From the NCBI GenBank assembly GCA_964016885.1, contig OZ024741.1, positions 56,916,001 to 56,980,000 on the forward strand: a DNA stretch of 64,000 bases. The letters run 5' to 3'. The DNA comes from Eledone cirrhosa (Eukaryota). Positions 4,015 through 55,516 of the stretch are shown in pieces. Numbering within the stretch: position 1 is the first letter of the stretch; each line of letters starts with the position of its first letter. The notes beneath the pieces were generated by a model. That model saw only the letters and a list, made by a program, of their open reading frames with translations, did not search any database and had not been told where the DNA came from. Made by a program: the position numbers and the translations under genes.

Positions 4015-4046
<32 letters not shown>

Positions 4047-4249: not shown

Positions 4250-4960
4250 ATCACTGCCACCACACCACCACACCGCCACTATCACCCCTATCACTATACC
4301 ACCACACCACCATACCGCCACTCTCACCCCTATCACTATACCACCACACCGCCACTATCACCCCTATCACTATACCACCACACCACCACACCGCCACTCT
4401 CACCCCTATCACTATACCACCACACCACCACACCGCCACTCTCACCCCTAGCACTATACCACCACACCGCCACTCTCACCCCTAGCACTATACCACCACA
4501 CCGCCACTCTCACCCCTATCACTATACCACCACACCGCCACTCTCACCCCTATCACTATACCACCACACCGCCACTATCACCCCTATCACTATACCACCA
4601 CACCACCACATCACTGCTATCACCATTATCATCACTACCACCACACCACCAAACCAACACCATCACCCCTATCACTATACTACCACGACACCACGACGCC
4701 ACCACTATCACCCCTGTCACTATACAACCACACAACCACACCACCACATCACTGCTATCATCATTATCACTACCACCACACCACCAAACCAACACCATCA
4801 CCCCTATCACTATACTACCACCACACCACCAAACCAACACCATCACCCCTATCACTATACTACCACCACACCACCAAACCAACACCATCACCCCTATCAC
4901 TATACAGCCACACAACCACACCACCACATCACTGCTATCATCATCATCACTATACCAATA
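4250..4960. repeat. Minisatellite of 34-42 bp units derived from the CAC satellite
   Basis: Repeated ccaccacaccgccactctcacccctatcactata and accaccacaccaccaaaccaacaccatcacccctatcactatact. Confidence 0.85.
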
Positions 4961-5825
4961 CTATCACCACGCCTCCACATCATCACGCAATCCTAGTACT
5001 GCCATCTCTATCAGACTAAACCATAATATCTCCTTATAACAGCACTCATTAAAATTTTATTATCACTAAATAACTATACTATGTGGTCACTTGGTCTGCA
5101 AGAAATAATAGCTGCCGTTATTGTCGCTATCATATCATTACATAAGTGTCTGTAGTATCTCTACGTTGCAATCTCGATGTTATCATACTATCAAAGCAAC
5201 TACTATCACTATGCTATATCATATTGTAAAATGTAAATGAAGCTCTGTCGGTTTGGCGGTAGATATTCCAATTGTTCAACCAATTGAGCTGCCAACTCAA
5301 TGAACTTGCGTGTAAGAGGCTGGATGTTCTATATACACGTGTGCCCTTTAGCATTTACATTACTCTATATATACTATTATATTTTCATGGTAAAGGCTTT
5401 ACCTCACATAATATCGAATCTATGATATTTTGAAAGTATTTATTTTGAGAACAATACCTTAACATCAGTTTGAGCGACCAGTTACAGCCAGTTTGAGCGA
5501 CCAGTTACAGCCAGTTTGAGCGACCAGTTACAGCCAGTTTCAACAGAAAGAGGTAGAGAATTCTGGCCGGTTTGAACATTAAAGGGTTAAGGGAGAACCG
5601 GCGTGACCGTGTATAACAAAAATGGGATTTTGAAATACAGATACAACCAGGGCCGAATTTAATAGGGGGGAAAAGAAGGAAATTGTCTCGGGCCCCCTGT
5701 AGTGGAGCTGCCAACTCAATGAACTTGCGTTTAAGTGACAGAGTATTCTATATATGTGTGAGCTCTTAAGGGAGAAACGGCAGAGCGTTTATAACAAAAT
5801 TGGACTTTTGAATTATAAACACAAC

Positions 5826-6554: not shown

Positions 6555-6601
6555 TTATCTACTGATGAGAAGACAAGAATCTCCGAAACGCGTAAAGATA
6601 A
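6555..6601 (+). ncRNA. Minimal type-I hammerhead ribozyme (PLE-type)
   Basis: ttatcta CTGATGA gaagacaagaatctcc GAAA CGCG TA aagataa: intact core, palindromic stem III ACGCGT, GUA site, stem I ttatct/agataa with one mismatch next to the core. Confidence 0.7.
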
Positions 6602-10153: not shown

Positions 10154-11870
10154 AAAATAACAGGAGGCTGGACTTGTGTAAATCCTTGAAAGGTTTATTA
10201 CACTATGATCATTTCAATGACCGGGTTCCGTACGAATCCGGTGATATCATCAGGTATTCGAAATATAATAAATGAATGTAACAGATAAAATCCAGGGGGC
10301 TGAAAATCGTAGACCCGAGGATGACCGACCATTTAGCACCTTCCACTTTAGCCGGAGCCCTCAAGTGCTGGTCATTCAGCATACTTAAGGCTATCTGGTA
10401 AGGGGGCTAAAGCTTATAGTGTGCTACTAAACTCCCGGTCAAAGAGAAGAAAAACAGAAAGAAAGAGGAAGAAGAGTCGGCGTTAATGTCATGCTACAAG
10501 AAAAAAGACAGAAAGAAAGAGGAAGAAAAGTCAGCATTAATGTCATGCTACAGTCAGGCCAGGAATTGCCGCGAAAAAAGTTATTCTAAAGGACCCGTAT
10601 CTTAACAGAGGTATATATTATAATAGAGGTATATATAGTGGGAGTCTACATGGTATAATGTGTGAGCAGAAGATTGGAACGTTAAATTTTTGTTTAGATT
10701 TATAGGATGAAGTTAAACAAAATTTAAATTTAAAGATTAACATTATAAAATAAAAAAATTAGAAAATTGAAAATTAAACAGTTTAAACATTTTTTTAAGG
10801 TTTGGGGTTGCGAGGTTTAGTTAAAGAAAGAGTCTTTTATGAAGAAACTTTAATTGTATTATAGAGATCCTCGATAAGTTATCCAAGTGGGATGTAGAGT
10901 AAAGATGATGTCCTTGTTTAGCAGTCAAACATCATGCGGCGACTGCAGACTCCGGCCAGCCCATCCTAACCACGTGTCAGCCATTCCGAGTGAGATCGCC
11001 TAGCGAAAGATATGGAAATCAATTTTTCCAAGCACTCCATGAATGTATTCCAGGCTTCAGGTGTGCTAGTGGGAAGTCAGCCATCGTCGTTAGGCCATCG
11101 TTATGCCAAACGAGTACTATTAATTTACACAGGAGGGGGATTTGTTTAAGTAGAGGGAGGCATGATACAGCTAATAGTTATGATTAGGCCTAGAATTTAA
11201 AGGTACTATATGGCGGTCAAAAAACGGCTGCGCGTCCGGCCCCGGGGCGAATCAAACCGCTCCGAGTAATTTCATTTACCGAAAGAAGGGGAAATTTATT
11301 TTTCCAAGCACTCAAGGTAGGCCTATGCAGCAGGAGGCCGGCCGGTCTCGCAGCCAGGAAAACCAATACAATAGTCGGATCATCGCGTGTAATCAATTGT
11401 AAAACTCGATGAAAAGCGCAAATAGACTATATCTAGGTCCCCGGATAGTCCAGCTAATAGGTATTGTTGGGTAGATATTCTAGTGTCGTGTGCTAATGGG
11501 TACAAGCGAGTAAAAATCCGAATAAAAGGAATAAAAAATACATGGATAGATAAAAGTAGAATACGTAGATAAAAACACATTAATACAGTAAAAAGGTGGA
11601 AATATATAAATAAACAAATAAAAATAACTAGAGAGGCGGTGGAGTAAATGGAGAAATCAAAACACAGGAGAAATACAATATAGTTCAAGTTGCAGTCAGA
11701 TAATACATATAGATGTGGAAATGGGATCAGTGTGTGTTCGAGTCTGAGAATTCAGTGTGAGTTACACAGGCCCTGAAGTATAGGGTAGAGAATTTAGTCA
11801 ATACAGTACAGTACAATACATGTTATGGTATAATCCGTAAAATTTTGTCGAAGTCTGAATATTCCGAATA
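10147..11870 (-). mobile_element. PLE-associated non-coding HHR element, family A (5'-truncated)
   Basis: Homologous to 20971-24400 and 39150-43177; HHR plus AATAAA near the 3' end; flanked by (TA)n. Confidence 0.8.
10200..10257 (-). ncRNA. Hammerhead ribozyme, family A
   Basis: Minus strand: atac CTGATGA tatcaccgg..ccggtcatt GAAA TGATCAT A gtgt, followed by AATAAA. Confidence 0.75.
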
Positions 11871-13950: not shown

Positions 13951-14434
13951 ATGTATGTATGAGTGTGTGTGTGATTGTGTGTGTTCATGCACATGTGTAT
14001 ACACATATACGCACACACATATATATAAGCACACACAATGTATGTATTCATATAAGCGTGTATATATGTATATGTGTTTATATAAGCATATATATGTCCC
14101 CTTATATATATATATATATTTATATATATATGTGTGTGTGTGTGTGTGCATGTACATGAGAGAGGGAGGGAGAGAGAGAATGAGAGAGATATAGTGTGTG
14201 TGCTATCATGGATGAGTGTCTGTGTGTCGCTGAGGCAGTTGTCATTTCTCATTCTTAATATTTTCTAGCACGAGAAGAAGATGAAAATTCTCCCCGTTTT
14301 CAATAAACGAGAAACAGATACATTTAATGTAACACCTGGTGGGAATTAATATACTTTATTACCAAGAAGATGTCACAATCAAACGTAAAATAAGGATTTT
14401 TCGTGGAAATTGACAAGCAATAAAGATGATAATA

Positions 14435-14995
14435 TTGTTTCTACTATTGGCACAAGGCCAGCAATTATCTCAGTACATTACTGGTACTTTATTTTATCGA
14501 CCTCGTAAGGATGAAAGGCAAAGTTAACCTCGGCGGGATTTGAACTCAGAATGGCAAGGGCCGTAACTCTATGCGTCAAAGCATGGCGTCCGATACTGCC
14601 AATCCACCGCCGGTAAATAATTGTTTCTACTTTAGGCACAAGGCCAGCAATTACCCAGTGCATTACTTATACTTTATTTTATCGACCCCGTAAGGATGAA
14701 AGGCAAAGTTAACCTCGGCGGGATTTGAACTCAGAATGGCAAGGGCCGTAACTCTATGCGTCAAAGCATGGCGTCCGATACTGCCAATCCACCGCCGGTA
14801 AATAATTGTTTCTACTTTAGGCACAAGGCCAGCAATTACCCAGTGCATTACTGGTACTTTATTTTATCGACCCCGTAAGGATGAAAGGCAAAGTCAACCT
14901 CGGCGGGATTTGAACTCAGATCGTAAAGGGACGTAACTATGCTGGAAAACATGGCGTCCGACCTTCTACCGATACTGCCAATCCACCGCCGGTAA
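14435..14995 (-). mobile_element. Tandem trimer of S1 SINE (185-bp period)
   Basis: Near-identical units offset by 185 bp (near-identical ORF-track translations at 14478 and 14663). Confidence 0.9.
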
Positions 14996-15235
14996 ATAAC
15001 GAAGTATACACTGTATTGAATATCGAAATTGCTTGAATATATTTAATACCACATAACAACATGTAGATAATCCCAATTGTCATGAGAAGATTTGGGCTCG
15101 ATACCACTAAAACCGGAAAACAGAAATTGCTCTCCTAAAAAAAAAAAAGACTTCTTTTCAGGGCATTGCACATATATTCTGAAATAAACAGCCTGTCTAA
15201 TGTCTTAAAACTGGATAGACAGTAGATCTAGCAAT

Positions 15236-18869: not shown

Positions 18870-19262
18870 CAGTATCGGTAGAGGGTTGGACACCATGCTT
18901 TGACGCATAGAGTTACGGCCCTTGCCATTCTTAGTTCAAATCTTGCCGAGGTTAACTTTGCTTTTCATCCTTACGGAAAATAAAGTACCAGTAATGCACT
19001 GGGTAATTGCTGGCCTTGTGCCAAAAGTAGAAACGGTTATATATATAGGGCGGTGGATTGACAGTATCGGTAGAGTGCCGGACACCCTTCTTCGCGGCAT
19101 AGAGTTACGGACCTTTATGTTCCGAGTTGAAATCCCGTCAAGGTTAGCTTTGCTTTTCATCCTTTCGAGGTCGATAAAATAAAGTACCAGTCACGCACTA
19201 GGGTCGATTTAATTTACTTTCCCCCTCCCTAAATTGCTGGCTTTATGCTTAAATCAGAAACT
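18870..19262 (+). mobile_element. Two tandem S1 SINE copies
   Basis: cagtatcggtagag...gttcaaatc...aaagtaccag...ggccttgtg occurs twice. Confidence 0.8.
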
Positions 19263-19343
19263 ATTATTTTTATATATATATATATATGTGCGTGTGTGTA
19301 TGTGTCTGTATATGTCTGTGTGTATGCGTAAGTGCGTGTGTGT

Positions 19344-20970: not shown

Positions 20971-21768
20971 TTCATTCAGGTTTGAGGTTCACCACTGGAT
21001 AGAGCTGGTCAATCTCAATGTAATAATATGGAGAGTACTCAACGTAAAGCAGTTCAACCGTCTTCGTTTTTGTAGTTGGTGGTGCTAGTACGGAGTTAAA
21101 TATTATAATGAAATGACAGGAGGCTGGACTTGTGTAAATCTTTGAAAGGTTAATTATACTATGATCATTTCAATGACCGGGTTCCGTATGAATCCGGTGA
21201 TATCATCAGGTATCCGAAATATAATAAATGAATGTAATAGGTAAAATCCATGGGACTGAAAATCAAAGACCCGTGGACGACCGGCATCTAGCATTTTCCA
21301 CTTTTGCCGGTCGCCCTCAAGTAAGGTGGCTAAAGCTTATAGTGTGCTATTACCGGTCAAATAGAGGAAAACAGAAAGGGAGAGTAAGATAAGTCAGTGT
21401 TAATATCATGCCACAAGAAAAAAGACAGAAAGAAGGGGGAAGAGAAGGAAGAAAAGGAAGAAGAAGAAAATTCAGGGTTAATGTCGAGCTACAAGAAGAA
21501 AGACAGAAAGAAAGAGGAAGAAAGGTCGGTACTAATGTCAAACTACAGTCAGGCCAGGAATGGCGCGAAAAAAAATGTATTCTAAGGGATCCGTATCTTA
21601 ACAGAGGTAAATATAGTGGGGGTCTGCATGTTATGTGTGAGCAGAAGATTGGAACGTTACCTTTTTGTAGGATGAAGTTAGAAAATTAATATTTAATATT
21701 AACATTATAAAATTAAAGAAATTATAAAATTGAAAGTTAAACAGTTTAACATTTTTATTATATTTCGA

Positions 21769-21826
21769 ATACCTGATGATATCACCGGATTCATACGGAA
21801 CCCGGTCATTGAAATGATCATAGTAC
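21769..21826 (+). ncRNA. Hammerhead ribozyme, family A
   Basis: atac CTGATGA tatcaccggattcatacggaacccggtcatt GAAA TGATCAT A gtac, followed by AATAAA. Confidence 0.75.
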
Positions 21827-24501: not shown

Positions 24502-24626
24502 ATATATATATAAGTTGAAATAAAATGAAAACGAAATTTCATTTCTCACTCTTAGTACGGCACTTACTTAAATGTAAGTATGTGTGTATACGTACATACA
24601 TATATGTATACAGACGTACAGTAGCA

Positions 24627-24686
<60 letters not shown>

Positions 24687-24839
24687 CAGGTACACATACA
24701 TATATGCACGTATCAGTTTAGCGGACGCTTATTATAACGCCGCTTTGTTCGTTTGTAAACAAACTGAACAGCCTGAATTTTATGCCGTACGGTGTTAAGG
24801 CAACCACGTCACCTTTTTGTTCAACACTGACACAGGAAC

Positions 24840-24878
24840 GATGTACTAGTTTCAAGCTTGTTAGCTATCATCAGCACC
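24840..24878 (-). ncRNA. Hammerhead ribozyme R1 copy 1
   Basis: Minus strand: ggtg CTGATGA t agct aaca agct t GAAA CTAG TA catc. Confidence 0.8.
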
Positions 24879-24889
24879 GTATACCCTTC

Positions 24890-24962
24890 TGCCAGATAGT
24901 TGAACGTTCGAAAGTATATACTTTCCTTATGAAAATTAACGGCTGAGCAGCCTAATTTGCAT
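24890..24962 (-). promoter_or_regulatory. Putative snRNA-type (type 3 Pol III) promoter: octamer, PSE-like block, TATA
   Basis: Minus strand: ATGCAAAT (24962-24955), 34 nt including TAATTTTCATA, TATATA (24920-24915), 24 nt, AGAAGGG. Confidence 0.6.
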
Positions 24963-25116
24963 ATCGAGTGAGTTAAGTCGGTCAGGCATACCGAAAACGA
25001 TAAGTTGAAATAAAATGAAAACGAAATTTCATTTCTCACTCTTAGAACGGCACTTACTTAAATGTAAGTATGTGTGTATACGTACATACATATATGTATA
25101 CAGACGTACAGTAGCA

Positions 25117-25214
<98 letters not shown>

Positions 25215-25367
25215 CAGGTACACATACATATATGCACGTATCAGTTTAGCGGACGCTTATTATAACTCCGCTTTGTTCGTTTGTAAACAAACTGAACAGC
25301 CTGAATTTTATGCCGTACGGTGTTAAGGCAACCACGTCACCTTTTTGTTCAACACTGACACGGGAAC

Positions 25368-25406
25368 GATGTACTAGTTTCAAGCTTGTTAGCTATCATC
25401 AGCACC
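25368..25406 (-). ncRNA. Hammerhead ribozyme R1 copy 2
   Basis: Identical to copy 1. Confidence 0.8.
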
Positions 25407-25417
25407 GTATACCCTTC

Positions 25418-25490
25418 TGCCAGATAGTTGAACGTTCGAAAGTATATACTTTCCTTATGAAAATTAACGGCTGAGCAGCCTAATTTGCAT
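25418..25490 (-). promoter_or_regulatory. Second copy of the R1 promoter cassette
   Basis: ATTTGCAT 25483-25490 and TATATA 25443-25448 as read on the plus strand. Confidence 0.6.
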
Positions 25491-25571
25491 ATCGAGTGAG
25501 TTAAGTCGGTCAGGCATACCGAAAACGATAAGTTGAATAAAATGAAAACGAAATTTCATTTCTCACTCTTA

Positions 25572-25635
<64 letters not shown>

Positions 25636-25673
25636 ATACTTTGGGAGGGTCATGTTGCCAATAAGAAACACAC

Positions 25674-26284
25674 TTGTATAGGAGCAAATTTTGGAATAGA
25701 ATAGAAAGAACTAGGAACAAGGCTAATAGAATAAACTCATGGTATGATAGCAATAAATACCAGAGTGTAATGTTCATCGATACAACCCCTAGAGGTGAAT
25801 TAGCTTACAAATTTAGAAGGGCCCTAAATAAACATAAACTCAATATTAAGATAGTAGAAAGACCAGGTACCTCCGTAAAAACACTTATTAGCAAGACATA
25901 GCCTTTTCAAAGACCCTCATGTATAGATAAGAAATGTATAACCTGTAAAATAAGCCCCCATATTAACTGCAAAACTAGAAATGTACTGAAGGACAACGTA
26001 GAGACAAAAATATAGTGTACATAGGTGAGACAGCTCGTAGTGTAGGAGAACGGATAAATGAACACTGGCGAGACCTTCAAGATAGTAAAGAATCATCTGT
26101 ACTCTACCAACATGCTAAAATAGAACACAAGGGTAAATTAGAGAACATAGAAATAAAAATAGAATCTACACACAGAAAAGACGCAATGTTTAGACAAATT
26201 ACAGAGGCAATAAACATAAAAGAATTACAACCAAAATTAAATAGAAAATATGAGTGGAACAGTAACATCACAACTCACAATTAA
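25674..26284 (+). pseudogene. PLE ORF 3' part: RT thumb/linker, Cys-rich linker and GIY-YIG endonuclease (stop and frameshift)
   Basis: SVMFIDTTPRGELA..KIVERPG; CIDKKCITC..C; YIGETARSVGERINEH..LYQHAKIEH..RQITEAINI..PKLNRKYEW. Confidence 0.85.
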
Positions 26285-26485
26285 GGACAAAATGAAAACA
26301 CACACACACATAGAACAAACAACCAACCAGTAACATGTAAATAAACAAATAAATAAATGAACATAAACACACACAGACACCCGGATGTGGCGCATGCGCA
26401 GACTGAGCACACAACACACACACAGAAACAAAATGGCGTAGGACAGAACAAAGGAGAGGCACAGAAACAAAGAAAGGAATCCCCA

Positions 26486-26526
26486 GTCACTGAAGAGGTC
26501 ACAGAGTGTGTGACGAAAGAACTGAC
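26486..26526 (+). ncRNA. Hammerhead motif in the PLE pseudo-LTR
   Basis: gtca CTGAAGA g gtcaca gagtg tgtgac GAAA gaac tgac; stem III / cleavage triplet degenerate. Confidence 0.6.
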
Positions 26527-26906
26527 AATATATAAACAACTATCTGGTTGTGGAACCAACCAACCAACCAGAAATTTATAAATTTATAAATTTATTATAA
26601 ATTTATTATAATAAATTGAAGTGAAAGCAACTGGTGCGTGTGTTTCTTATTGGCAACATGACCCTCCCAAAGTATAACAATATCGGTTTCAACACACGAT
26701 TTCAGATAAAGAATCTTGCTAAACAAATTCAGAAACGATATATATATATATATATAGAATGTTTAAGTATCGAGAGAGAGAGAAAAGGAAAGATAAGCGA
26801 TACATATATTTAGTTGCCAATAGTTTGTGCAAGAATGAACTCTGATGTGAATTTAACCTTAAAACTCCTCCTGGGTCGCGTACTGATCATTTTTTTTTGT
26901 TTTATA

Positions 26907-28071: not shown

Positions 28072-28078
<7 letters not shown>

Positions 28079-28711
28079 TTTTGCGAGGTTTTTTATATGA
28101 AATCGTGTGTCGAAACAAATATTGTTATACTTGGGGAGGGTCATATTTGTGTAATATTGCCAGAATTAATAACAGAACACACTCACTGTTTGGTTGGTTT
28201 TCGCTTCTCGCTGTCTTTTATATCGGTAATCTAACTTACTCGGTCCTCAATGTTGCCATTGACTGACCGACGGTCAAAAATAATACAGATACAATATAGA
28301 CACAAACACATATATATATAGTTTATCATAAATCTTTCGTTGCACATCTGCAACATCGTCAGTGGTGTCATATTTTCCTCCTGTTGTGTTGTGTCTACGC
28401 CATTTTTATTCAGTCTCTGAATAAAAATGGCGTAGACATACAAGACAACAGGAAGAAAATATGACACCACTGACGATGTTGCAGATGTGCAACGAAAGAT
28501 TTATGATAAACTATATATATGTGTTTGTGTCTATATTGTATCTGTATTATTTTTGACCGTCGGTCAGTCAATGGCAACATTGAGGACCGAGTAAGTTAGA
28601 TTACCGATATAAAAGACAGCGAGAAGCGAAAACCAACCAAACAGTGAATGTGTTCTGTTATTAATTCTGGCAATATTACACAAATATGACCCTCCCCAAG
28701 TATAACAATAT
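28072..28711. mobile_element. About 590-bp palindrome made of two PLE pseudo-LTRs, plus a 47-nt tail
   Basis: Arms 28119-28413 / 28417-28711 with a 3-nt loop; ends ccctccccaagtataacaata like 26660-26680; HHR in each arm. Confidence 0.9.
28466..28507 (+). ncRNA. Hammerhead ribozyme motif (mirrored on minus at ~28325-28366)
   Basis: acca CTGACGA t gttgca gatg tgcaac GAAA gattta tgat. Confidence 0.65.
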
Positions 28712-28980
28712 ATATATATATATATATGTCTATATGTGTATGTGTGAGTATGTACGTATAGCCACGTTTGAGTAGGTGTGTGTGTGTGGTGGGTGGGTAA
28801 GTGTGCGTATATATATGTGTGTGTGTATGTGTCTATATATGTGGATGTGTATGTGGGTGCAGGTGCATGCATATGCAGGCCTTTATATGTGTCTATATGT
28901 ATTTGTGCATACAAGTATGTGTTTATGTGCATCTCATGGGAATGTGTGCAGATGATTATATATGGACTATATATGCTTTG

Positions 28981-29160
28981 ATTGGCAGTATCAGTAGAGG
29001 GTCGGACGCCAAGCTTTCCAGCATAGTTACGTCCCTTTACGATCTGAGTTCAAATCCCGCCGAGGTTGACTTTGCTTTTCATCCTTACGGGGTCGATAAA
29101 ATAAAGTACCAGTAATGCACTGGGTAATTGCTGGCCTTGTGCCTAAAGTAGAAACAATTA
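28981..29160 (+). mobile_element. S1 SINE copy
   Basis: Near-identical reverse complement of 14805-14983. Confidence 0.85.
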
Positions 29161-29418
29161 TTACTATTATTCTTGTTGTATTAAAAACAAATAACGAAAC
29201 GAAATTAAATTTCGTTTCGTTTGTAACTCACTTTTGTATGACTGACGCTTAAACAATTAAGTTAAAAATGTACATCTACATATGCATACTGAAATACTAG
29301 TGTGTATATGAATACACACACGTATACATATGTAGGTGTAACAGACAAACCGGTTTTTAGAGTCATACTGGTTTTCGGGGGAACACCTTCCCTCTATTCT
29401 CCAGAAAGCCAGACAAGG

Positions 29419-29460
29419 AATATTGAACTAGTTTCGTTGTTACAACTCATCAGCAATATT
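29419..29460 (-). ncRNA. Hammerhead ribozyme R2 copy 1
   Basis: Minus strand: aatattg CTGATGA gttg taa caac GAAA CTAG TT caatatt; 7-bp stem I, GUU site. Confidence 0.85.
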
Positions 29461-29480
29461 TACCTATCTACCGGCCCTTC

Positions 29481-29553
29481 TGGAGAATTGTAAAAGCACA
29501 TATCGTTATATGCTTTTTCTATGAAAATTAGTAGTGGGCAGACTAATTTGCAT
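29481..29553 (-). promoter_or_regulatory. Putative type 3 Pol III promoter of R2
   Basis: Minus strand: ATGCAAAT, 34 nt including TAATTTTCATA, ATATAA, 24 nt, AGAAGGG; same spacing as R1. Confidence 0.6.
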
Positions 29554-29882
29554 AGAGTGTGAGTACGCACCGGTTCAGCGGAGACGATAAAAACAAATAA
29601 CGAAACGAAATTAAATTTCGTTTCGTTTGTAACTCACTTTTGTATGACTGACGCTTAAACAATTAAGTTAAAAATGTACATCTACATATGCATACTGAAA
29701 TACTAGTGTGTATATGAATACACACACGTATACATATGTAGGTGTAACAAGTCTTTCACTGGTTGCTTTACTGTGAGCAACCCAGCTATTCTGTATGTAA
29801 ACACACAGACAAACCGGTTTTTAGAGTCATACTGGTTTTCGGGGGAACGCCTTCCCTCTATTCTCTAGAAAGCCAGACAAGG

Positions 29883-29927
29883 AATATTGAACTAGTTTCG
29901 TTGTTGTTACAACTCATCAGCAATATT
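29883..29927 (-). ncRNA. Hammerhead ribozyme R2 copy 2
   Basis: As copy 1, with 3 extra nt in the stem II region. Confidence 0.8.
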
Positions 29928-29946
29928 TACCTATCTACCGGCCCTT

Positions 29947-30360
29947 TATTATCAGGGCTATCCTTTCTACGGATTGCATTGCATATTGTTTGGGCCACCA
30001 CATCGTACCTTATAGGTAGTTAGTATCGTGATGACATCTTTGAACAGTTGCTTATGATATGGGTGACATCCTTGATATTTATTCCGTGGAGTCAGCATTT
30101 GTTGTTACATCTAGATGCTTTGCTTGCTTCTCTTTTGTGCGTTAGGTATTTCGTTGTTATTTCTTGTTCTTGGATTGCAAAAGCATATCCTTCAAAATGA
30201 GAGCCAATATAGCGATTGTTAGTCCATATTATCTATATTACTGTCCCTTTGAAGCTTTCTGACGACATAGCCATGCATGATTTTTTTGTTGATAAGCATA
30301 CAACGTTTTATCTGTTGTGCAATATCCCTGGATGTAAGTTTTTGGTTATCATAGAGTCAT
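29947..30360 (-). pseudogene. Remnant of an RLE-type non-LTR retrotransposon (R4/Dong-like), post-RT Zn-knuckle region
   Basis: Manual translation EGYAFAIQEQEITTKY..NKC*LHGINIKDVTHIISNCSKM..IRYDVVA resembles the AIQEQ..CRxC..E..HI..C..RHD pattern. Confidence 0.65.
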
Positions 30361-32239: not shown

Positions 32240-32990
32240 CTTCTCTTCTTCTTCCTCGTCCACTTATTCCTGAGAGGGTCGTGGGGGGAGAGACCTCAAA
32301 AACTCATTCCAGTGGGTCCTGTCAACTGATCTGGCTGGATTTCCAAGCGAGATCTCTTGCTCGGAGTCTACCCCTGGGTCTCCTGTCAGTTGGTTTTGCC
32401 CGTAAAATCTGTCCAGCAATTCTTTCCTGGGACATTTTACCACACGCCCGTAATATCGGAGCTGTGATCTCTCAACTCGGAGAAGTAGCGGCTCTACCAG
32501 GAGCGACTCTCTGATCTCCAAGCTACGTACTTTATCGAGTAACGTCACTCCAAAGACCCTTCAGAGAAACCCCATTTCGGCCGCTTGTTATTTGCGATCG
32601 TATTCTTTCGATCATTACCCAAGATGACCAAAGTTAAGGGTTGCCACGAATACCGAATCGAAGATAGCGGGTTTGGATTTTACGCAGTACTGATGTTCAT
32701 TCCAGCTACACAGCACTCGGTATCAAACCTATCAAGTGCAAGTCGGAGATCACCTTCTGTCGGGTTAAGTAATACCATATCGTCTGCAAATTCCAGCCGA
32801 CTGATTTTACACCTGCCAGTCATGATATCACTTCCAACCCGGCTGCGCATATCAATCCTGTTCATGAAAATAATGAACAGGAGAGGCGATAATACGCACC
32901 CTTGGTAGAGTCCGACTCGCACATTGAATGGTTTCGATTTAGCACCATTTATCCGAACGCAAATTCTCAGGCATTCGTATAGAGTAGTTT
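32240..32990 (-). mobile_element. 5'-truncated RTE (Expander/Rex3-like) LINE with RT remnant
   Basis: GLYQGCVLSPLLFIIFM..FADDMVL (RT motifs); DKVRSLEIRESL.VEPLLLRVERSQLRYYG. Confidence 0.85.
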
Positions 32991-34499: not shown

Positions 34500-34925
34500 T
34501 TCATCAAGGGAGGGCAATGGTGGGTGGCATATTGCTCAAACACACCTTACAGTCGGTCTTGTCAGAAGCAACCGTCCCCAATTGATCCGGCTGGATCACC
34601 AAGCAGGACCAGCCGGGCTCATGGATGTTATCCAACCATCTTGTTCGGGGGTCAACCCCTGGGTCTCTTGGATACTTGAACTTCTCCACCTGCTTCAGTG
34701 GAACTCCACTCACATGTTGAGGGGACTTCGCAGGCTTCTTTGAGAGGACGAGTGTCTCAGTCTTCAGGGCACTGATTTCCATTCCAGCCGTGCTGCACTT
34801 GGCATCAAACCTATCAAGTACATCTCGGAGATCACTTTCCAACAAATTAAGTAATACTATGTCAACTGAAATTTCCAGCCAACTGATCTTACATCCGCCA
34901 CTCGTGATACCACTTCCTACTGCGC
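34500..34925 (-). mobile_element. Deleted copy of the same RTE LINE family
   Basis: LDRFDAKCSTAGMEISALKTETLVLS..LKQVEKFKY; homologous to 32240-32850. Confidence 0.75.
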
Positions 34926-34989
34926 AAGGTTGTTTATTACGTAATATTGATAAGGGGACGGATGAGTTACATGTTTCCCTTATCGAAGG

Positions 34990-35270
34990 TGTAAGTGATC
35001 CCCATTTGAATCCTTGCATTTTTAGGAGGTCGTGGTGAAGTTTAGTATAACGTCTTTACAGACAGACCGAGGAATGGCTCTGATCTCCTCCCCGATATGT
35101 TCCTTTAGTTCAGTGATGGTCCTGGGGTTGTTGACATATACCCTGTCCTTCAGATTTCCCTATAGAAAGAAATATGTGAGTCTTAAATCAGGGCTGCGTG
35201 GGGCCCACTCAAAATCAATCTTCAAACTGATCACATTATTTCCAAAGGTATGTTTCTTCCATTCTTCTGG
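34990..35270 (-). pseudogene. Tc1/mariner transposase C-terminal remnant
   Basis: EWAPRSPDL..FFL*GNLKDRVYVNNPRTITELKEHI (SPDL motif). Confidence 0.75.
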
Positions 35271-35651: not shown

Positions 35652-35884
35652 TAATGTAGTGTTACTTAGTAGAAAACATCCAAAGTTGGGAGAGCACTCA
35701 TTCTGTGAAAATACAAATATTTATAACACTAGCTTGGGTGCCATTGTGGTACAATTATTTTTCTGGTTGTTTGTTTCAGATTGTCTCTGAGACAGCCAAA
35801 GGAACAATTTTACCTCAATTATACCATAGTTAGTATTATATATATCTCACACACGCGAGTGTGTGTATGTGTGTGTGTATACTT

Positions 35885-36155
35885 CATTTTTGTATTTGTT
35901 TTGCAAGATTTTCTATCTGAAAACGTGTGTTGAAACAGATATTGTTATGCTTTGGGAGGGTCATGCTGCCAATAAAAACACACGCACCTGTTGGTTTTCA
36001 CTTCAATCTATTATCAACTTCCAGTTGGTTTGCTTAATAACCGGATGGTTGTTTATTTGTTTACTGTCAAAGCTCTTTTGTAACATATGCTGTTACCTCC
36101 TCAGTGACTAATTTGTTATTTCGTGTCTCTCTTTTGTTCTGTCCTACACCATCTG
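35885..36155 (-). mobile_element. Degenerate PLE pseudo-LTR related to 26440-26730
   Basis: ttgttatgctttgggagggtcatgctgccaataa; decayed HHR gtca CTGAGGA ggtaaca..tgttac at ~36065-36108. Confidence 0.7.
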
Positions 36156-37709: not shown

Positions 37710-37857
37710 AACCACAGACCCTCCATCTCAATTCTACTTTTGAAAAGCAGAAGAACTGCGAAACCAGTAAAGGAACCAAATAAATATATATATTTTTTTT
37801 AAAAGACTCTAGTTGCATTTTCGATTTCATCTTTTTTCCTTATATATATATATATAT

Positions 37858-38018
37858 AAATGGAAAAAAATGAAACGAAATTTCATTTCTCACTCTTAGT
37901 ACGGCTGATTCTTAGGTGTAAGTATGTATGTACACGTACATACATATATGTATACAGACGTACATACTACTGTACGTCTGTATACATATATGTATGTACG
38001 TGTACATACATATTTACA

Positions 38019-38949: not shown

Positions 38950-39350
38950 AGATTTGAATGGATACAGTTTAGTTGAAAGGAATTTATTGACACGTGTTTC
39001 TATAACAGTTACATAACCTAAAACAGCTATCTACAAACTTTTAGTTATGCAGACATTCAATATTTCAATGTTATTATTTACTGTCATTTCATCAGAATAA
39101 TATTACTGAGGACCTATTTATATATATATATATAAATATATATATATATTTCTTTAGGTTTGTTGGTTCACCACTGTATAGAATTGGTCATTCCGTACGG
39201 TCAATCTTGATGTAATATTGTGGAGAGTACTCAACGTAGTGCAGTTCACTCATCTTCGTTTGTGTAGTTGGTGGTACGAATACGGAGTTAATTATAAATA
39301 AGATAAAATAACAGGAGGCTGGACTGGTGTAAATCCTTGAAAGGTTTATT

Positions 39351-39408
39351 ATACTATGATCATTTCAATGACCGGGTTCCATATGAATCCGGTGATATCA
39401 TCAGGTAT
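39351..39408 (-). ncRNA. Hammerhead ribozyme, family A
   Basis: Minus strand: atac CTGATGA..GAAA TGATCAT A gtat, then AATAAA. Confidence 0.75.
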
Positions 39409-41253
39409 TGGAATATAACAAAGGAATATGTAAAAAACCATGGGTCCGAAAAATCAGAGACAGAGACAAAGAGGACGACTGACCAACTAGCTGCCTCTAC
39501 CTCGGCCAGTCGCCCTCAAAGTGGTGGCAACCGAATCTACTATGACCATCTGGTGAGGGGCGAAGGCTTATAATGCACTACCATCTCTCCGCCAAAGAAA
39601 AAGGGGAAGAAAGAAAGAGAGGAAGAAAGAAGAAAAAAGGGAGAAAGAAGTCAGCGTAAGGGTCATACTACATTTATGCTAGAAAATGACGCGAAAAAAA
39701 TGTTACTCCAAAGAATCTATAATGGGTGTTTGTATGGTCTAATGTGTGAACCGAAGATTGGAACGTTAAACTTATGTTGCGAGTTATAGGATGAAATTAA
39801 ATTAAATTAAAAATATTAAATTGCAAAATGATAAATTGAAAAATAAATTATTAGAAAATTAAAGGTTAAGTTAACGAGATTTATTTAATGAACTTACGGA
39901 GAGAGTCTTACATGAAAAAATTAATCTCGATAAGATATCAGGATGGGATATAGAGTAAAGATTTCGATTGTGAGTTCCAGCCAGCACACCCACCGCCATG
40001 AGTCAGCCAGTCTCGAGTGGTATCGTCCAGCGAAAGAAATGGAAATTAATTTTTTCCGAGTACTCTAGGAACGTAGCTACCTTAGGCCCCGGGAGTGCTA
40101 GCGGGAACTCCACAATTTCGACAGGCCATCGTCTATACCAAACGAATATTACTAAATCACACATGAGGGGTTTATTTACGTGCCAGTAGAGGCATGATAC
40201 AGCTAATAGTTATGCCTAAACCTGGAGTTTATAGGTACATGTATAATATGGCGGCCAAAACAGGCGACGCGGTGGGACCGGGGCAAAGCAATCCGCTCCG
40301 AGTAATTTCGTTTACCGAAAGAGGAGAAATTTATTTTTCCGAGCACTCAAGGAAGGCTGAACTTTCCGAGTGCCCAGCGCGCAGCCGGGAAAAGCCACCA
40401 CATAAGTCGTAGGCAGCAACCCAATGAAAAGTGCAAATAGACCATAATTATTTTAAAGTCCCAGTTAGTCCGCGTTATAAGTAGTGTGGTTCTTAGGTGG
40501 GTAAGGGGCTATGAAAGGTGCATAATGACCTGAGTAAGGAAAGTTACAAAAAAATAATAAAAGCAGGATACAAAGATAAAATACAAATATAAGGTTAGAA
40601 TACATTGATAAAAATACATTAATAAAATAATAAAAAATTAATCAAGGTAAATAACTAGGGATGTTGAAAGACGGAAGTATATAAGAACGTATCGGAGGAA
40701 TCACAGTGTAGGGGAAATACAATATAGATCAAGTTGTAGTAAGATAATACAGGTTGTACATATAGATATAGAGGATGGAGGAGATGGAATGGTAACAGGT
40801 TGTACCTAGTGTAAAGTTCGGGTCTCCGAATTCAGTGTGAGTCACAAAAAGTCCTGAGGTATAGAGTCAAGAATTCAGTCAATACATGTTTTAGTATAAT
40901 ACGTAGAGTTTTGCCGGAATCGGAATCATCCCGACAAGGAAGTAGTATCAGGTGGCGGTAGATAAGGCGCAGAGCAGCCAAAATCCGAATGGTAAGTAGA
41001 TCAGTTAATCCCATGCTGGTAATAGCTGTACACTGAAGTCAGTGCCGCTGTTCAATATTACATTTTGAAGTGCTCAACATTTTTGGAGCATTATTTCTTT
41101 AGGTTTGTTGGTTCACCACTGGATAGAACTGGTCATTCCGTATGGTCAATCTTGGTGTAATATTGTGTAGTTGTTGATGCGAATACGGAGTTAATTATAA
41201 ATACGATAAAATAACAGGAGGCTGGACTGGTGTAAATCCTTGAAAGGTTTATT

Positions 41254-41311
41254 ATACTATGATCATTTCAATGACCGGGTTCCATATGAATCCGGTGATA
41301 TCATCAGGTAT
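41254..41311 (-). ncRNA. Hammerhead ribozyme, family A (second unit)
   Basis: Identical to 39351-39408. Confidence 0.75.
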
Positions 41312-43179
41312 TGGAATATAACAAAGGAATATGTAAAAAACCATGGGTCCGAAAAATCAGAGACAGAGACAAAGAGGACGACTGACCAACTAGCTGCCTC
41401 TACCTCGGCCAGTCGCCCTCAAAGTGGTGGCAACCGAATCTACTATGACCATCTGGTGAGGGGCGAAGGCTTATAATGCACTACCATCTCTCCGCCAAAG
41501 AAAAAGGGGAAGAAAGAAAGAGAGGAAGAAAGAAGAAAAAAGGGAGAAAGAAGTCAGCGTAAGGGTCATACTACATTTATGCTAGAAAATGACGCGAAAA
41601 AAATGTTACTCCAAAGAATCTATAATGGGTGTTTGTATGGTCTAATGTGTGAACCGAAGATTGGAACGTTAAACTTATGTTGCGAGTTATAGGATGAAAT
41701 TAAATTAAATTAAAAATATTAAATTGCAAAATGATAAATTGAAAAATAAATTATTAGAAAATTAAAGGTTAAGTTAACGAGATTTATTTAATGAACTTAC
41801 GGAGAGAGTCTTACATGAAAAAATTAATCTCGATAAGATATCAGGATGGGATATAGAGTAAAGATTTCGATTGTGAGTTCCAGCCAGCACACCCACCGCC
41901 ATGAGTCAGCCAGTCTCGAGTGGTATCGTCCAGCGAAAGAAATGGAAATTAATTTTTTCCGAGTACTCTAGGAACGTAGCTACCTTAGGCCCCGGGAGTG
42001 CTAGCGGGAACTCCACAATTTCGACAGGCCATCGTCTATACCAAACGAATATTACTAAATCACACATGAGGGGTTTATTTACGTGCCAGTAGAGGCATGA
42101 TACAGCTAATAGTTATGCCTAAACCTGGAGTTTATAGGTACATGTATAATATGGCGGCCAAAACAGGCGACGCGGTGGGACCGGGGCAAAGCAATCCGCT
42201 CCGAGTAATTTCGTTTACCGAAAGAGGAGAAATTTATTTTTCCGAGCACTCAAGGAAGGCTGAACTTTCCGAGTGCCCAGCGCGCAGCCGGGAAAAGCCA
42301 CCACATAAGTCGTAGGCAGCAACCCAATGAAAAGTGCAAATAGACCATAATTATTTTAAAGTCCCAGTTAGTCCGCGTTATAAGTAGTGTGGTTCTTAGG
42401 TGGGTAAGGGGCTATGAAAGGTGCATAATGACCTGAGTAAGGAAAGTTACAAAAAAATAATAAAAGCAGGATACAAAGATAAAATACAAATATAAGGTTA
42501 GAATACATTGATAAAAATACATTAATAAAATAATAAAAAATTAATCAAGGTAAATAACTAGGGATGTTGAAAGACGGAAGTATATAAGAACGTATCGGAG
42601 GAATCACAGTGTAGGGGAAATACAATATAGATCAAGTTGTAGTAAGATAATACAGGTTGTACATATAGATATAGAGGATGGAGGAGATGGAATGGTAACA
42701 GGTTGTACCTAGTGTAAAGTTCGGGTCTCCGAATTCAGTGTGAGTCACAAAAAGTCCTGAGGTATAGAGTCAAGAATTCAGTCAATACATGTTTTAGTAT
42801 AATACGTAGAGTTTTGCCGGAATCGGAATCATCCCGACAAGGAAGTAGTATCAGGTGGCGGTAGATAAGGCGCAGAGCAGCCAAAATCCGAATGGTAAGT
42901 AGATCAGTTAATCCCATGCTGGTAATAGCTGTACACTGAAGTCAGTGCCGCTGTTCAATATTACATTTTGAAGTGCTCAACATTTTTGGAGCATTATTTC
43001 TTTAGGTTTGTTGGTTCACCACTGGATAGAACTGGTCATTCCGTATGGTCAATCTTGGTGTAATATTGTGTAGTTGTTGATGCGAATACGGAGTTAATTA
43101 TAAATACGATAAAATAACAGGAGGCTGGACTGGTGTAAATCCTTGAAAGGTTTATTATACTATGATCATTTCAATGATC

Positions 43180-43246
<67 letters not shown>

Positions 43247-43499
43247 AGGAGTGAAGAATAATATGGTCAACAGTACAAAAAGGGTTTTATTTACAGTATC
43301 AACAATTGTTTCATCGATTAAGTTTTTTGCTAATCACTTGAAGTTGTGTCACTCAATCTTAAATACAATGTATAACGATAATTTGTTATCCCATATATAT
43401 ATATATATGATGATATATATATATATATACATTTTAGAATTTTATTTCTCGCCCTAGCACAGCTGATACATAAATGTAAGTACACACACACACACACAG

Positions 43500-43560
<61 letters not shown>

Positions 43561-44025
43561 AACATATGTGTATATATATATATATATACATACGTACACA
43601 CACATATATACATATGACGATATACATATACATATACATATACATAGACATATACATATGACGATACATATACATATGACGATCGGTCACGGGCACGGCA
43701 CAGCTTCAAATCGAGCCGTTTGTTTACAAACGAATCGAACATTATTAATGTTCGATAAAACCCATACGTACATATGTATATATGTGTGTGTGTGTATGTA
43801 TATATATATATATATGTGTGTGTGTGTATACATATGTGTGTACGTGTGCATACTTACATATATTCAATTTTATTACGGTTAAATAGAGTCTTGTTACTCT
43901 GGAGCTTCGCCTGTTTAGTGATGAACAGGCGAAGAGTAACAAGACTCTATTTTAGCCTTTATAAAATGTATATTAAAAATCTCTACTTCGGTTTTGAGTA
44001 CTCTTTTCTTTCAGCCGTCAACCAA

Positions 44026-46408: not shown

Positions 46409-46980
46409 CGTTTAAATTTTGTAGTTTACCACTGGTTAGAATCGGTCATTCTGCAATGTTAATCGTGACGTAATATACAAAAGCACTCGTTATGCAACTC
46501 ATCCATCTTTGATGTTGAATCATGTTGGTGGTGCGGGAAGGAAGTAAATGTATTATAAAGTGAAATTACAGGAGGCCAAATATGTTGAATTTCCTTAATT
46601 ATTTATTTCTGCAAAACTATATATTTCAGTGGCCAGGTTGTGTAAGAACCTGGTGACATCTTCAGGTGTAAATTGCGTAATAGATGTATACCAACGGAAT
46701 GATGGTAAACTTTAAGGAAACAAGCAAAGAAAAAAACGGAGTAGAAAAAAGTGTGTTTATGTTTTTGACCCTGAGACGAACGTTTTTATAATGCCTCGCT
46801 GCCTCTCGTTTCCTTAAAGTTTACCACCATTCCGTTGGTATACATCTATTACGAAATTTACGCCTGAAGATGTCACCAGGTTCTTACACAACCTGGCCAC
46901 TGAAATGTGCATAGTGTTTGCAGAAATAAATAATTAAGGAAATTCAACATTTTTGGCCTCCTGTCATTTCACTTCATAAT
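46405..46980. mobile_element. Family-A-related element with inverted pLTR
   Basis: 46555-46721 inverted versus 46808-46980; terminal ggcctcctgtcatttca and tail homologous to family A. Confidence 0.75.
46860..46917 (+). ncRNA. Hammerhead ribozyme, family A-related
   Basis: acgc CTGAAGA tgtca ccaggt..acctgg ccact GAAA TGTGCAT A gtgt; stem II covaries with family A. Confidence 0.75.
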
Positions 46981-48777: not shown

Positions 48778-49392
48778 AATTGTTCTTGTCATATACATTT
48801 TTTATATATATATATATGGCATACACACACATATATATATATATGTATTTACATATTGCTTATTTCATATCATATTCTTGGTTACACGTTTCCAATTAGC
48901 CAATTACTGGTACACTGTAGTAATGGAGAGAACAGTAAGGTGAAAGGGGTCTGTCTGTGCAACACGAGAGGAATAAATATCACAAGCATTTCGTCCTTTT
49001 TTTTTTGTTCGCCGATATACATCGCTGACCCCCCCCCCCCCCACACACACACACACGGACATATATGTGTTTTATTATTATTTCTGGCAATATTATAATA
49101 ATATGACCCTCCCCAAATATAACAATATTTAAATTTCAGCGATGTATATCGGCGAGCAAAAAAAAAAAAGGACGAAATGCTTGTGATGTTTATTCCTCTC
49201 GTGTTGCACAGACAGACCCCTTTCACCTTACTGTTCTCTCCATTACTACAGTGTACCAGTAATTGGCTAATTGGAAACGTGTAACCAAGAATATGATATG
49301 AAATAAGCAATATGTAAATACATATATATATATGTGTGTGTATGCCATATATATATATATATATATATAAAATGTATATGACAAGAACAATT
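48778..49392. repeat. About 250-bp inverted repeat around a PLE terminal fragment
   Basis: Arms 48778-49028 / 49136-49392; spacer contains atgaccctccccaaatataacaata. Confidence 0.85.
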
Positions 49393-55026: not shown

Positions 55027-55516
55027 ATATATATATATATATATATATTCAAGACGGTGGATTTATTCACTCTTTCTGTCGGTCTACCAACTTCACCTTG
55101 AATTTGGCAACCTGTAGCTAATACAGAAGGCACGTACCCAAAGTGCGGCAAAGAGAGATCGAAGCCAGTGTCCTATGGCTGCGAAGTGACCTTTTATAGC
55201 TGGTTATTAATAGGTTATCTTCAAAGTGTTATATAGTGTAGTGCTGTATATATGTACTGTGTTTATAGGTAAGTCAAAGGAGGTTTCTCTTGATCAATAT
55301 ATTTTTATTGCCATAAGTAGGTAAAATGATCTCTCGATAACGGAAAAAATATAAATATTTATTGATCCCGTACCACGATAGCGATAAAAAGATTAGATTT
55401 CTTTTAGTTTCGTAATTAAATTTACCTACCAATTGGTGATTATTCTTATGAACGTTTTCGTATATAGTTAGTAAAAGAAGAAAAAGATGATGATGATAAT
55501 AATCATAATAATAATA

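What the first reader, a model, noticed from the sequence alone, without database searches (positions are those of the whole stretch)
29883..29950. The 5' boundary of the R2 insertion falls within 2 nt of the predicted transcription start
Seen: the second R2 unit matches the first up to ...ctaccggccctt (29946) and then switches to an unrelated R4/Dong-like remnant. On the minus strand the insertion therefore begins at AAGGG of the AGAAGGG motif. Inference: this is what full reverse transcription of an uncleaved primary transcript starting at the predicted +1 would leave (TSS-HHR-body-promoter-TSS-HHR-body). It supports the promoter call independently of the motif match.
Basis: partly seen in the sequence, partly recalled or inferred. 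Interest (0 to 1): 0.7.

Follow-up and report, generated by a model that had tools for sequence, protein, structure and literature searches.

The report
Hammerhead retrozyme insertion with start-proximal end
A small self-cleaving-RNA repeat was copied back into this animal genome, and its copy stops two to four bases from a predicted transcription start, a suggestive but single-case hint that these elements carry their own promoter and are sometimes copied from uncut transcripts rather than from RNA circles.

Summary
The junction is real. Identity between the two R2 units begins at 29946, position +3 of CAGAAGGG, which lies 72 nt from the octamer in both R1 and R2. The support for the promoter is weaker than claimed. 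The flanking LINE remnant aligns through 29945, so the AA may be shared and the boundary is +3 to +5. The LINE's 3' part is missing from the window. Only 1 of 4 R1/R2 insertions in the window has a 5' end near +1: chance about 4-6%, likelihood ratio about 5-10. The 'promoter' blocks are arms of RNA hairpins, and HHR stem I continues across the predicted +1 in both subfamilies, so the RNA under selection is a circle or multimer. The stronger signal is at the 3' end: 3 of 4 insertions end at the same TA(T)|CG site behind a conserved hairpin, in AT-rich targets, like a neighbouring Penelope-type element. Verdict: a non-LTR retrozyme moved by a Penelope-like element (PLE). Run-off from an uncleaved, probably Pol II, precursor is about 50% likely; chance truncation on a circle or multimer about 33%.

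The parts
29182..29946 (-). R2 insertion, 765 nt: distal unit from +3, then the 107-nt promoter-like linker, then the proximal unit to the fixed 3' end; period 467 nt
   Evidence: units differ by 2 substitutions in 298 aligned nt, one 3-nt and one 58-nt indel
29944..29946 (-). 5' junction; AA (29946-29945) may belong to both R2 and the LINE, so the boundary is +3 to +5
29947..29951 (-). candidate 5-nt target-site duplication TAATA, 5' copy
   Evidence: chance 1.3% per boundary, about 4% over three
29179..29183 (-). candidate target-site duplication, 3' copy (two bases shared with the element end)
29945..30356 (-). old non-LTR retrotransposon remnant (post-RT zinc-knuckle region) with three stops and a frameshift; its downstream part is not found in the window
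29475..29482 (-). CAGAAGGG, predicted start (A at 29481 = +1), 72 nt from the octamer start in both R1 and R2
29546..29553 (-). octamer ATGCAAAT (-72 to -65); also the 5' arm of an RNA hairpin
29520..29530 (-). conserved block TAATTTTCATA (-49 to -39); a 10-of-11 inverted copy of the octamer context and the 3' arm of the same hairpin; not shown to be a PSE
29492..29517 (-). TATA-like AAAGCATATA (-35 to -26) inside an 11-bp hairpin; 2 of the outer 6 pairs are compensatory against R1
29397..29487 (-). extended HHR stem I: -6..+4 pairs with +76..+85, i.e. the helix crosses the predicted +1
   Evidence: 0 of 500 shuffled upstream segments as stable
29419..29460 (-). type I hammerhead, proximal; predicted cut between 29426 and 29425 (after +56), GUU triplet, palindromic 2-bp stem III
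   Evidence: (HH9 30.3 bits, E 1.4e-4, below gathering score 52)
29883..29927 (-). type I hammerhead, distal; predicted cut between 29890 and 29889
   Evidence: (HH9 38.6 bits, E 3.1e-7, below gathering score 52)
29747..29804 (-). 58-nt block of two hairpins, present in the distal unit and (as a homologue) in R1, deleted from the proximal unit between TGT repeats
29192..29224 (-). conserved hairpin just 5' of the fixed 3' end (second copy 29598-29630)
   Evidence: (z -2.8 for the distal copy)
29554..29587 (-). 34-nt 'tail'-like segment between the fixed 3'-end site (29588) and the octamer; pairs back across the hairpin in R1 and R2
24511..25572 (-). R1a: sister-subfamily array, two units plus a 44-nt stub, in (TA)n; 5' end at -154, 3' end at the same site as R2
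37856..38018 (-). R1b: 5'-truncated, 5'-inverted R1 copy in (TA)n; same 3' end; 5' ends at about +263 to +271 (proximal-unit numbering)
43438..43863 (.). R1c: older (70-73%) inverted pair of R1 fragments; 3' end about 25 nt short of the common site; 5' ends at about +100-127 and +183
25979..26744 (+). Penelope-type remnant: GIY-YIG-like frame, HHR at 26490-26518, terminus with a ~50-nt tail; candidate helper family
   Evidence: nearest Atlas clusters include GIY-YIG, score 0.94-0.96; Pfam and the word-index search found nothing
28980..29162 (+). young SINE-like repeat (97% to 14801-14983) whose (ATT)n tail forms the 3' target of R2
   Evidence: tRNA-SINE label is recalled

Best explanation
R1 and R2 are two subfamilies of a non-coding hammerhead retrozyme that borrows the RT/GIY-YIG protein of a Penelope-like element. 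Shown from sequence: tandem units each with a type I HHR, a highly self-paired HHR-to-HHR monomer, a fixed 3' insertion end behind a hairpin, AT-rich targets, variable and often inverted 5' ends. Inferred steps: (1) a promoter in the 3' part of each unit (octamer -72, TATA-like -30, C|A initiator) starts transcription at or next to AGAAGGG. This is most likely Pol II, because the RNA must run through oligo-T tracts. (2) The transcript reads through a second unit; two HHRs usually cut it as a dimer and the monomer is circularised. (3) The PLE protein nicks AT-rich DNA and starts cDNA internally at TA(T)|CG. (4) At this locus it caught a precursor that was uncut (or cut but still held by stem I), copied it to its 5' end and joined the cDNA 2-4 nt short of +1. 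That gives TSS-HHR-body-promoter-TSS-HHR-body. Run-off products would be a minority class beside truncated products of circles or longer multimers such as R1a.
For: Junction at +3..+5; likelihood ratio 5-10 over random truncation for run-off fractions of 0.05-0.3. CAGAAGGG is identical at the same octamer distance while the spacer is only 8 of 23 identical (about 0.005 after allowing 25 positions). A candidate TSD favours a junction made at insertion (1.3-4%). The two R2 units differ by 58-nt and 3-nt indels at only 2 of 298 substitutions, as a heterogeneous linear template would give. 3 of 4 3' ends coincide (about 1e-4 by chance). R1's 10-mer at that site is 1 mismatch from a neighbouring PLE's first end (29 of 3311 TAT-starting 10-mers do as well, a count that includes these loci). 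PAc uses unprocessed RNA and internal starts (PMC11167929). Newt satellite 2 has an snRNA-type Pol II promoter (passage in PMC2220036).
Against: One event in 4 insertions (6 ends); no solo +1-to-3'-end monomer, the expected commonest run-off product, is in the window. Stem I crosses +1 in both subfamilies with different sequences (0, 2 and 3 of 500 shuffles as stable), and both upstream motifs sit in hairpins, so motif conservation need not mean promoter. R1's AGAAGGG aligns equally with R2 +13. Two HHRs on one RNA are the condition for efficient dimeric cleavage (PMC4209133, PMC7229834). The LINE's 3' part is missing and the Lys codon suggests AA microhomology. R2's 10-mer at the 3' site is 3 mismatches from the PLE's, which is not significant (18%). 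A review states that metazoan retrozymes seem to lack promoters (PMC7761336). The indels could also come from RT skipping over hairpins.
Confidence: 0.5

Rival explanations
1. Chance truncation: the cDNA was made by rolling around the HHR-to-HHR circle (or along a longer read-through multimer) from the fixed internal start and happened to stop at +3..+5. The upstream motifs are kept for RNA structure or protein binding and may or may not also be a promoter.
For: Circular monomers fold far better than shuffles (z -8.4 for R2; -6.3 for R1 with the TA run shortened for the null). Stem I crosses +1. R1a (two units plus 44 nt) cannot come from a two-unit transcript started at +1. 3 of 4 insertions end elsewhere. 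At least one hit among 4-6 ends has a 4-6% chance. Rolling-circle RT is the standing model (PMC7229834, PMC7761336).
Against: Needs a 1-in-100 coincidence at this locus. In the circle, +3 lies mid-helix with no structural stop. A single circle gives identical units, whereas these differ by two indels.
Confidence: 0.33
2. Later deletion: R2 was longer, and a microhomology-mediated deletion removed its 5' part together with the 3' part of the LINE, joining them at the shared AA.
For: LINE homology runs exactly to 29945, with Lys in 4 of 8 usable homologues; three homologues' HSPs run two codons further, to 29939; no downstream LINE sequence anywhere in the window.
Against: The candidate TSD would then be chance (1.3-4%). 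R2 is young (2 of 298 substitutions) and the LINE old (three stops and a frameshift), so the LINE had far more time to lose its 3' end before R2 arrived. The position would still be a 1% coincidence.
Confidence: 0.12
3. Template switch: RT ran off the R2 RNA and jumped onto an internal stretch of a LINE RNA, so LINE fragment and R2 were inserted together. This would still imply an RNA 5' end near +1.
For: Same strand; the fragment lacks both ends; AA microhomology.
Against: The fragment is decayed while R2 is young; the candidate TSD lies at the R2-LINE junction, not beyond the fragment.
Confidence: 0.05

Closest known systems
Metazoan non-LTR retrozymes (Cervera and de la Pena 2020, PMC7229834; Li, Clavereau and Pollet 2026, 10.64898/2026.07.22.740005)
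   Same: Non-coding tandem units of a few hundred nt, each with a type I HHR with a short palindromic stem III; self-paired circular monomer; co-occurs with PLEs; R1 has a U.U mismatch at the base of stem II like axolotl HHR_Amex2.
   Different: In the parts read, those papers give no promoter, no fixed RT start and no 5'-end mapping; no cephalopod example was seen. Here there is an octamer/TATA-like arrangement and a shared 3' end.
Newt satellite 2 (Coats, Zhang and Epstein 1994; seen only as cited in PMC2220036 and, for Pol II transcription, PMC6765202)
   Same: HHR tandem repeat with an internal snRNA-type promoter transcribed by Pol II. Recalled, not checked: it has an octamer, and the ovary 5' end lies about 47 nt upstream of the cut; the predicted distance is 47 nt in R1 and 56 nt in R2.
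   Different: Invertebrate host; TATA-like element present; PSE not demonstrated; start not mapped; dispersed small arrays with PLE-type ends.
Penelope/Poseidon PLEs (PAc, PMC11167929; D. virilis Penelope, PMC2377424; structure summary in 10.1101/2021.04.23.441226)
   Same: [quoted passage not shown]
   Different: No ORF; no alignable pLTR homology to the neighbouring PLE beyond a 10-mer; no copy ending at a second (tail) start among 4.
Schistosoma Sm-alpha HHR SINE-like repeats (passage in PMC6765202)
   Same: Promoter followed by HHR; tandem needed to propagate.
   Different: Sm-alpha is Pol III-transcribed; R2's oligo-T runs argue against a Pol III template.

Membership tests
non-LTR retrozyme | tandem units, at least two consecutive with a complete type I HHR | tested here: met
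   4 HHRs in 2 arrays (0 in 100 shuffles); 92% of cells paired and 6 of 13 pairs changed on both sides, from only two lineages; Rfam HH9 matches below gathering score for 3 of the 4, none at gathering score
non-LTR retrozyme | unit of a few hundred nt, no protein-coding ORF | tested here: met
   467 and 528 nt, slightly above the 150-450 of PMC7229834 and within the 51-972 of the 2026 preprint; the only stop-free frames of 90 codons or more overlapping the arrays are one running through R1's TA run and one across the R2 junction
non-LTR retrozyme | highly self-paired circular monomer | tested here: met
   in silico only: z -8.4 and -6.3 against 40 shuffles each
non-LTR retrozyme | self-cleavage and circRNA accumulation | not testable with these tools
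   needs in vitro transcription and RNA data
non-LTR retrozyme | TSD longer than 4 bp when present | tested here: inconclusive
   5-nt candidate at R2, chance 1.3-4%; R1 copies lie in (TA)n
non-LTR retrozyme | no PBS or PPT | not tested
   no search run
PLE-mobilised element | fixed internal RT start beside a stem-loop | tested here: met
   3 of 4 insertions end at TA(T)|CG behind the hairpin; R1c ends about 25 nt short
PLE-mobilised element | AT-rich targets, partial tandems, inverted 5' copies | tested here: met
   (TA)n for R1a-c, (ATT)n tail for R2; inversions in R1b and R1c
PLE-mobilised element | sequence shared with the pLTR or tail of an autonomous PLE | tested here: inconclusive
   blastn of the PLE terminus finds no R1/R2 hit; 10-mer at the end site: R1 1 mismatch (0.9%), R2 3 mismatches (18%)
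snRNA-type promoter (newt satellite 2 type) | octamer upstream | tested here: met
   3 of 5 octamers in the unmasked window are in R1/R2; 2-3% expected per unit by chance
snRNA-type promoter (newt satellite 2 type) | PSE centred about 50-55 bp upstream of the start (PMC1761439) | tested here: inconclusive
   the conserved block is centred near -44 and is an inverted octamer copy; no mollusc PSE was available (search empty; the figure in PMC4287351 S2 is pictures)
snRNA-type promoter (newt satellite 2 type) | mapped start and polymerase | not testable with these tools
   needs CAGE/RACE and alpha-amanitin tests
type 3 Pol III promoter (U6/H1) | TATA box 21-27 nt upstream (PMC4287351) | tested here: met
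   ATATA ends at -26 (R2) and -25 (R1), but lies in a hairpin with compensatory changes
type 3 Pol III promoter (U6/H1) | transcript ends at the first oligo-T run | tested here: not met
   the copied RNA spans T5 at +275, +356, +681 and T4 at +422, +454, and ends at T5 +762

The most novel reading that the evidence does not exclude
An invertebrate (probably octopus) retrozyme family writes a Pol II promoter (octamer at -72, TATA at -30, initiator) into the arms of its circRNA hairpins, so that one sequence serves as DNA promoter and RNA rod. It carries a mimic of a resident PLE's internal RT-start site, and is retroposed from two template classes: circles, giving random 5' ends, and uncut primary transcripts, giving ends at +1. 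Genomic ends alone would then map its start site and its helper.
Probability: 0.3. Interest if true: 0.7.

Novelty: new member of a known kind. Interest (0 to 1): 0.42.

Why it matters
How animal retrozymes are transcribed, and which enzyme and template move them, is open: a review says they seem to lack promoters (PMC7761336), and the 2026 preprint says the mechanism remains to be shown. This family gives two countable landmarks, a fixed 3' RT start and a candidate +1, so an end histogram from one assembly could separate circle from linear templates and point to the helper PLE. The single junction reported here is only a first data point.

Tried and rejected
No eukaryotic genome could be searched, so the decisive 5'-end histogram was not run; only four in-window insertions were available (blastn and nhmmer). 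Two scans of the bacterial/archaeal genome collection for stray copies found 0 matches each. Viral and metagenome contigs stayed unchecked. Rfam at gathering scores: 0 matches in the window; the miRNA-family hits at the E-value threshold come from TA runs and inverted repeats and were ignored. Pfam on the LINE fragment and the GIY-YIG frame: 0 families. PDB sequence searches: 0 hits. Word-index search with the GIY-YIG frame: 0 of 17 candidates. Continuation of the LINE beyond R2 or the SINE: no tblastn hit. 5' end at the HHR cut: rejected, 0 of 6 ends. Pol III/U6 reading: disfavoured by oligo-T runs. RT stalling at a hairpin: not favoured, since the junction is on the exit side of stem I and the cDNA end folds weakly (-7.0 kcal/mol). 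The isolated +1..+102 leader folds no better than shuffles (z 0.0). RNAalifold on the octamer hairpin shows 0 of 11 pairs with a compensatory change and on the 3' region 1 of 18, so these two structures are not proven by covariation. Coats 1994 was not held. No mollusc PSE was found. The Ig/H2B-like geometry (octamer near -70 plus TATA) is recalled; a search for it returned 0 papers. Searches for prior reports: octopus + hammerhead ribozyme, 4 listed, none by title or abstract describing this family; retrozyme + promoter + polymerase III, 2 listed; retrozyme/Penelope since 2020, 11 listed. Supplements of the 2026 preprint were not seen and may list related families, though its sample had no mollusc.

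Full report
Setting. The window is AT-rich (37% GC), repeat-dense animal DNA. One homologue of the flanking LINE fragment is named from Octopus bimaculoides, and I recall the abundant SINE as an octopus family, so an octopus origin is an inference. R2 (29182-29946) and R1 (24511-25572) are minus-strand tandem arrays with periods of 467 and 528 nt, homologous along their length.

The observation. Identity between the two R2 units starts at 29946, the third base of AGAAGGG. CAGAAGGG occurs three times in the window (0.98 expected, 6 of 100 shuffles reach 3), each time 72 nt from the start of an octamer. An ATATA lies at -30 (R2) or -29 (R1) and TAATTTTCATA at -49 or -48, so there is a 1-nt shift between the subfamilies. 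The spacer from -24 to -2 is only 8 of 23 identical, and eight identical bases in a row at that level have a chance of about 0.005 after allowing 25 positions. The landmark is therefore objective. The flank is a decayed non-LTR retrotransposon fragment on the same strand, with three stops and a frameshift; its clade was not determined.

How exact the boundary is. The LINE frame aligns through the Lys codon at 29947-29945. Five of nine printed homologue rows have Lys there, four of eight without the unrelated P0009, and three HSPs run two codons further. The AA may thus be shared, which makes the boundary +3 to +5. Alternatively TAATA at 29951-29947 and 29183-29179 is a target-site duplication, which fixes the boundary at +3; a match this long has a chance of 1.3% per boundary and about 4% over three. 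The two readings exclude each other and I cannot choose between them. None of 30 homologues finds the LINE's downstream part anywhere in the window, so a deletion happened near here at some time. It more likely came before R2, which is young (2 substitutions in 298 nt between units).

The other ends in the window. Four insertions of the family were found. R1a starts at -154 with a TA microhomology. R1b and R1c are truncated in mid-body with inversions. So 1 of 4 insertions (1 of 6 ends) lies near +1 and none at the HHR cut. That has a 4-6% chance under uniform truncation and gives a likelihood ratio of about 5-10 for a run-off class making up 5-30% of copies. This is support, not confirmation.

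The ribozyme. Each unit holds a type I hammerhead with a 2-bp palindromic stem III. Six of 13 pairs have changed on both sides between R1 and R2 (two lineages only), and Rfam HH9 matches below its gathering score. The cut is predicted after +56 in R2 (GUU) and +47 in R1 (GUA). The R2 5' end keeps the whole core, so the template was not a cleaved linear monomer; it was uncut, re-joined, circular or multimeric. Dimeric arrangement favours cleavage (PMC4209133, passages; PMC7229834, parts 2-4 of 6). Against that, PAc used unprocessed RNA as its main substrate (PMC11167929, parts 1-2 of 4 and passages), and 8 of 9 Xenopus dimers showed no cleavage in vitro (10.64898/2026.07.22.740005, parts 1-3 of 5).

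The octamer context pairs with TAATTTTCATA (10 of 11, with a conserved C.U mismatch) in both subfamilies. The TATA-like motif sits in a second hairpin with 2 compensatory pairs among the outer 6. Stem I continues across the predicted +1: six upstream pairs in R2 and twelve in R1, with different sequences; 0, 2 and 3 of 500 shuffled upstream segments are as stable. Circular HHR-to-HHR monomers fold at z -8.4 and -6.3. Selection therefore acts on an RNA that contains the upstream region, a circle or multimer. R1's AGAAGGG matches R2's +13 motif, at the same distance from the HHR core, as well as R2's +1 (7 of 9 each). A promoter is not excluded: the octamer hairpin is invariant rather than covarying (0 of 11), which suggests sequence recognition, and newt satellite 2 is a precedent (passages in PMC2220036 and PMC6765202; the original was not held). 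The second block is centred near -44 rather than -50 to -55 (PMC1761439, passages) and looks like an inverted octamer, so 'PSE' is unproven. The copied RNA crosses five oligo-T runs and ends at a sixth, which argues for Pol II. Octamer near -70 plus TATA is, from memory, the geometry of immunoglobulin and H2B promoters (unverified). PMC11340601 and PMC4287351 (passages) were used for Pol III promoter anatomy.

The stronger signal is the 3' end. R2, R1a and R1b end at the same TA(T)|CG site, 107-111 nt before the next +1, just behind a conserved hairpin and 34-40 nt before the octamer. R1c ends about 25 nt short. The chance of 3 of 4 agreeing is about 1e-4. Targets are (TA)n or an (ATT)n tail. 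A Penelope-type remnant next to R1a belongs to a group of six related termini, three ending at AACAA-TAT and three running on for about 50 nt. This is the two-start tail signature described for PAc and summarised in 10.1101/2021.04.23.441226 and PMC2377424 (passages). R1's 10-mer at its end site is one mismatch from that PLE's (0.9% of TAT-starting 10-mers), R2's three mismatches (18%). PLE-type internal priming is thus well supported, and the specific helper only suggested.

Mechanism and odds. A transcript from one unit's promoter through the next unit is the precursor needed to make a circle, and R2 has exactly its shape from +3 to the RT start. I put run-off on such a precursor at 0.5, chance truncation on a circle or longer multimer at 0.33, later deletion at 0.12 and template switching at 0.05. 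These are judgements built on the ratios. R1a shows that non-run-off templates exist in any case.

Comparison and verdict. The element meets the testable criteria of a non-LTR retrozyme and works like a non-autonomous PLE. Promoter-bearing HHR repeats are known from newts and schistosomes, while a review (PMC7761336, passages) says retrozymes seem to lack promoters. My searches showed no cephalopod family and no end-mapping in listings or in the parts read; PMC10886601 was seen only as a listing. Novelty: new member of a known kind, with features that would make it a new variant if the promoter holds. Interest 0.42.

Noticed in passing
window 24511, 29182, 37856 (3' ends); internal equivalents 25001, 29588: Three of four R1/R2 insertions share one 3' end at TA(T)|CG behind a conserved hairpin, a PLE-type internal RT start; a stronger signal than the 5' junction.
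   Followed up: yes
window 29482-29556 and 25419-25495 (minus): The octamer, the second block and the TATA-like motif are arms of RNA hairpins, and HHR stem I pairs across the predicted +1 in both subfamilies.
   Followed up: yes
window 25632-25673, 25979-26744, 28074-28181, 28648-28711, 35878-36014, 49065-49130: Penelope-type family with a GIY-YIG-like remnant, an HHR and six related termini, three without and three with a ~50-nt tail; R1a sits in the (TA)n at one of them.
   Followed up: partly
window 28078-28711: Long inverted repeat centred near 28416 with one HHR motif on each arm (28335-28362 minus, 28470-28497 plus), typical of an inverted PLE pseudo-LTR.
   Followed up: no
window 10212-10253, 21168-21209, 21773-21814, 39363-39404, 41266-41307; related 46624-46665 and 46864-46905: A further HHR-motif repeat family with several rearranged copies, including a ~1.9-kb tandem duplication (39150-43177, 97.6%) and an inverted pair near 46.7 kb; no octamer seen.
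   Followed up: no
window 6562-6588 (+): Isolated HHR-like motif with a palindromic stem III.
   Followed up: no
window 29747-29804: A 58-nt block of two hairpins is deleted from the proximal R2 unit between TGT repeats, as RT skipping or microhomology repair would leave.
   Followed up: partly
window 14434-14999, 18870-19270, 28980-29162, 55505-55676 and others: Abundant ~185-nt SINE-like family, in head-to-tail tandems at 14.4-15.0 kb and 18.9-19.3 kb.
   Followed up: no
window 32264-32988 and 34504-35055 (minus): Reverse-transcriptase fragments of another LINE (RVT_1, E 2.6e-10 for 32683-32985).
   Followed up: partly
window 40-4970: About 5 kb of degenerate (CCA)n/ACC-rich tandem repeat with higher-order periods.
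   Followed up: no
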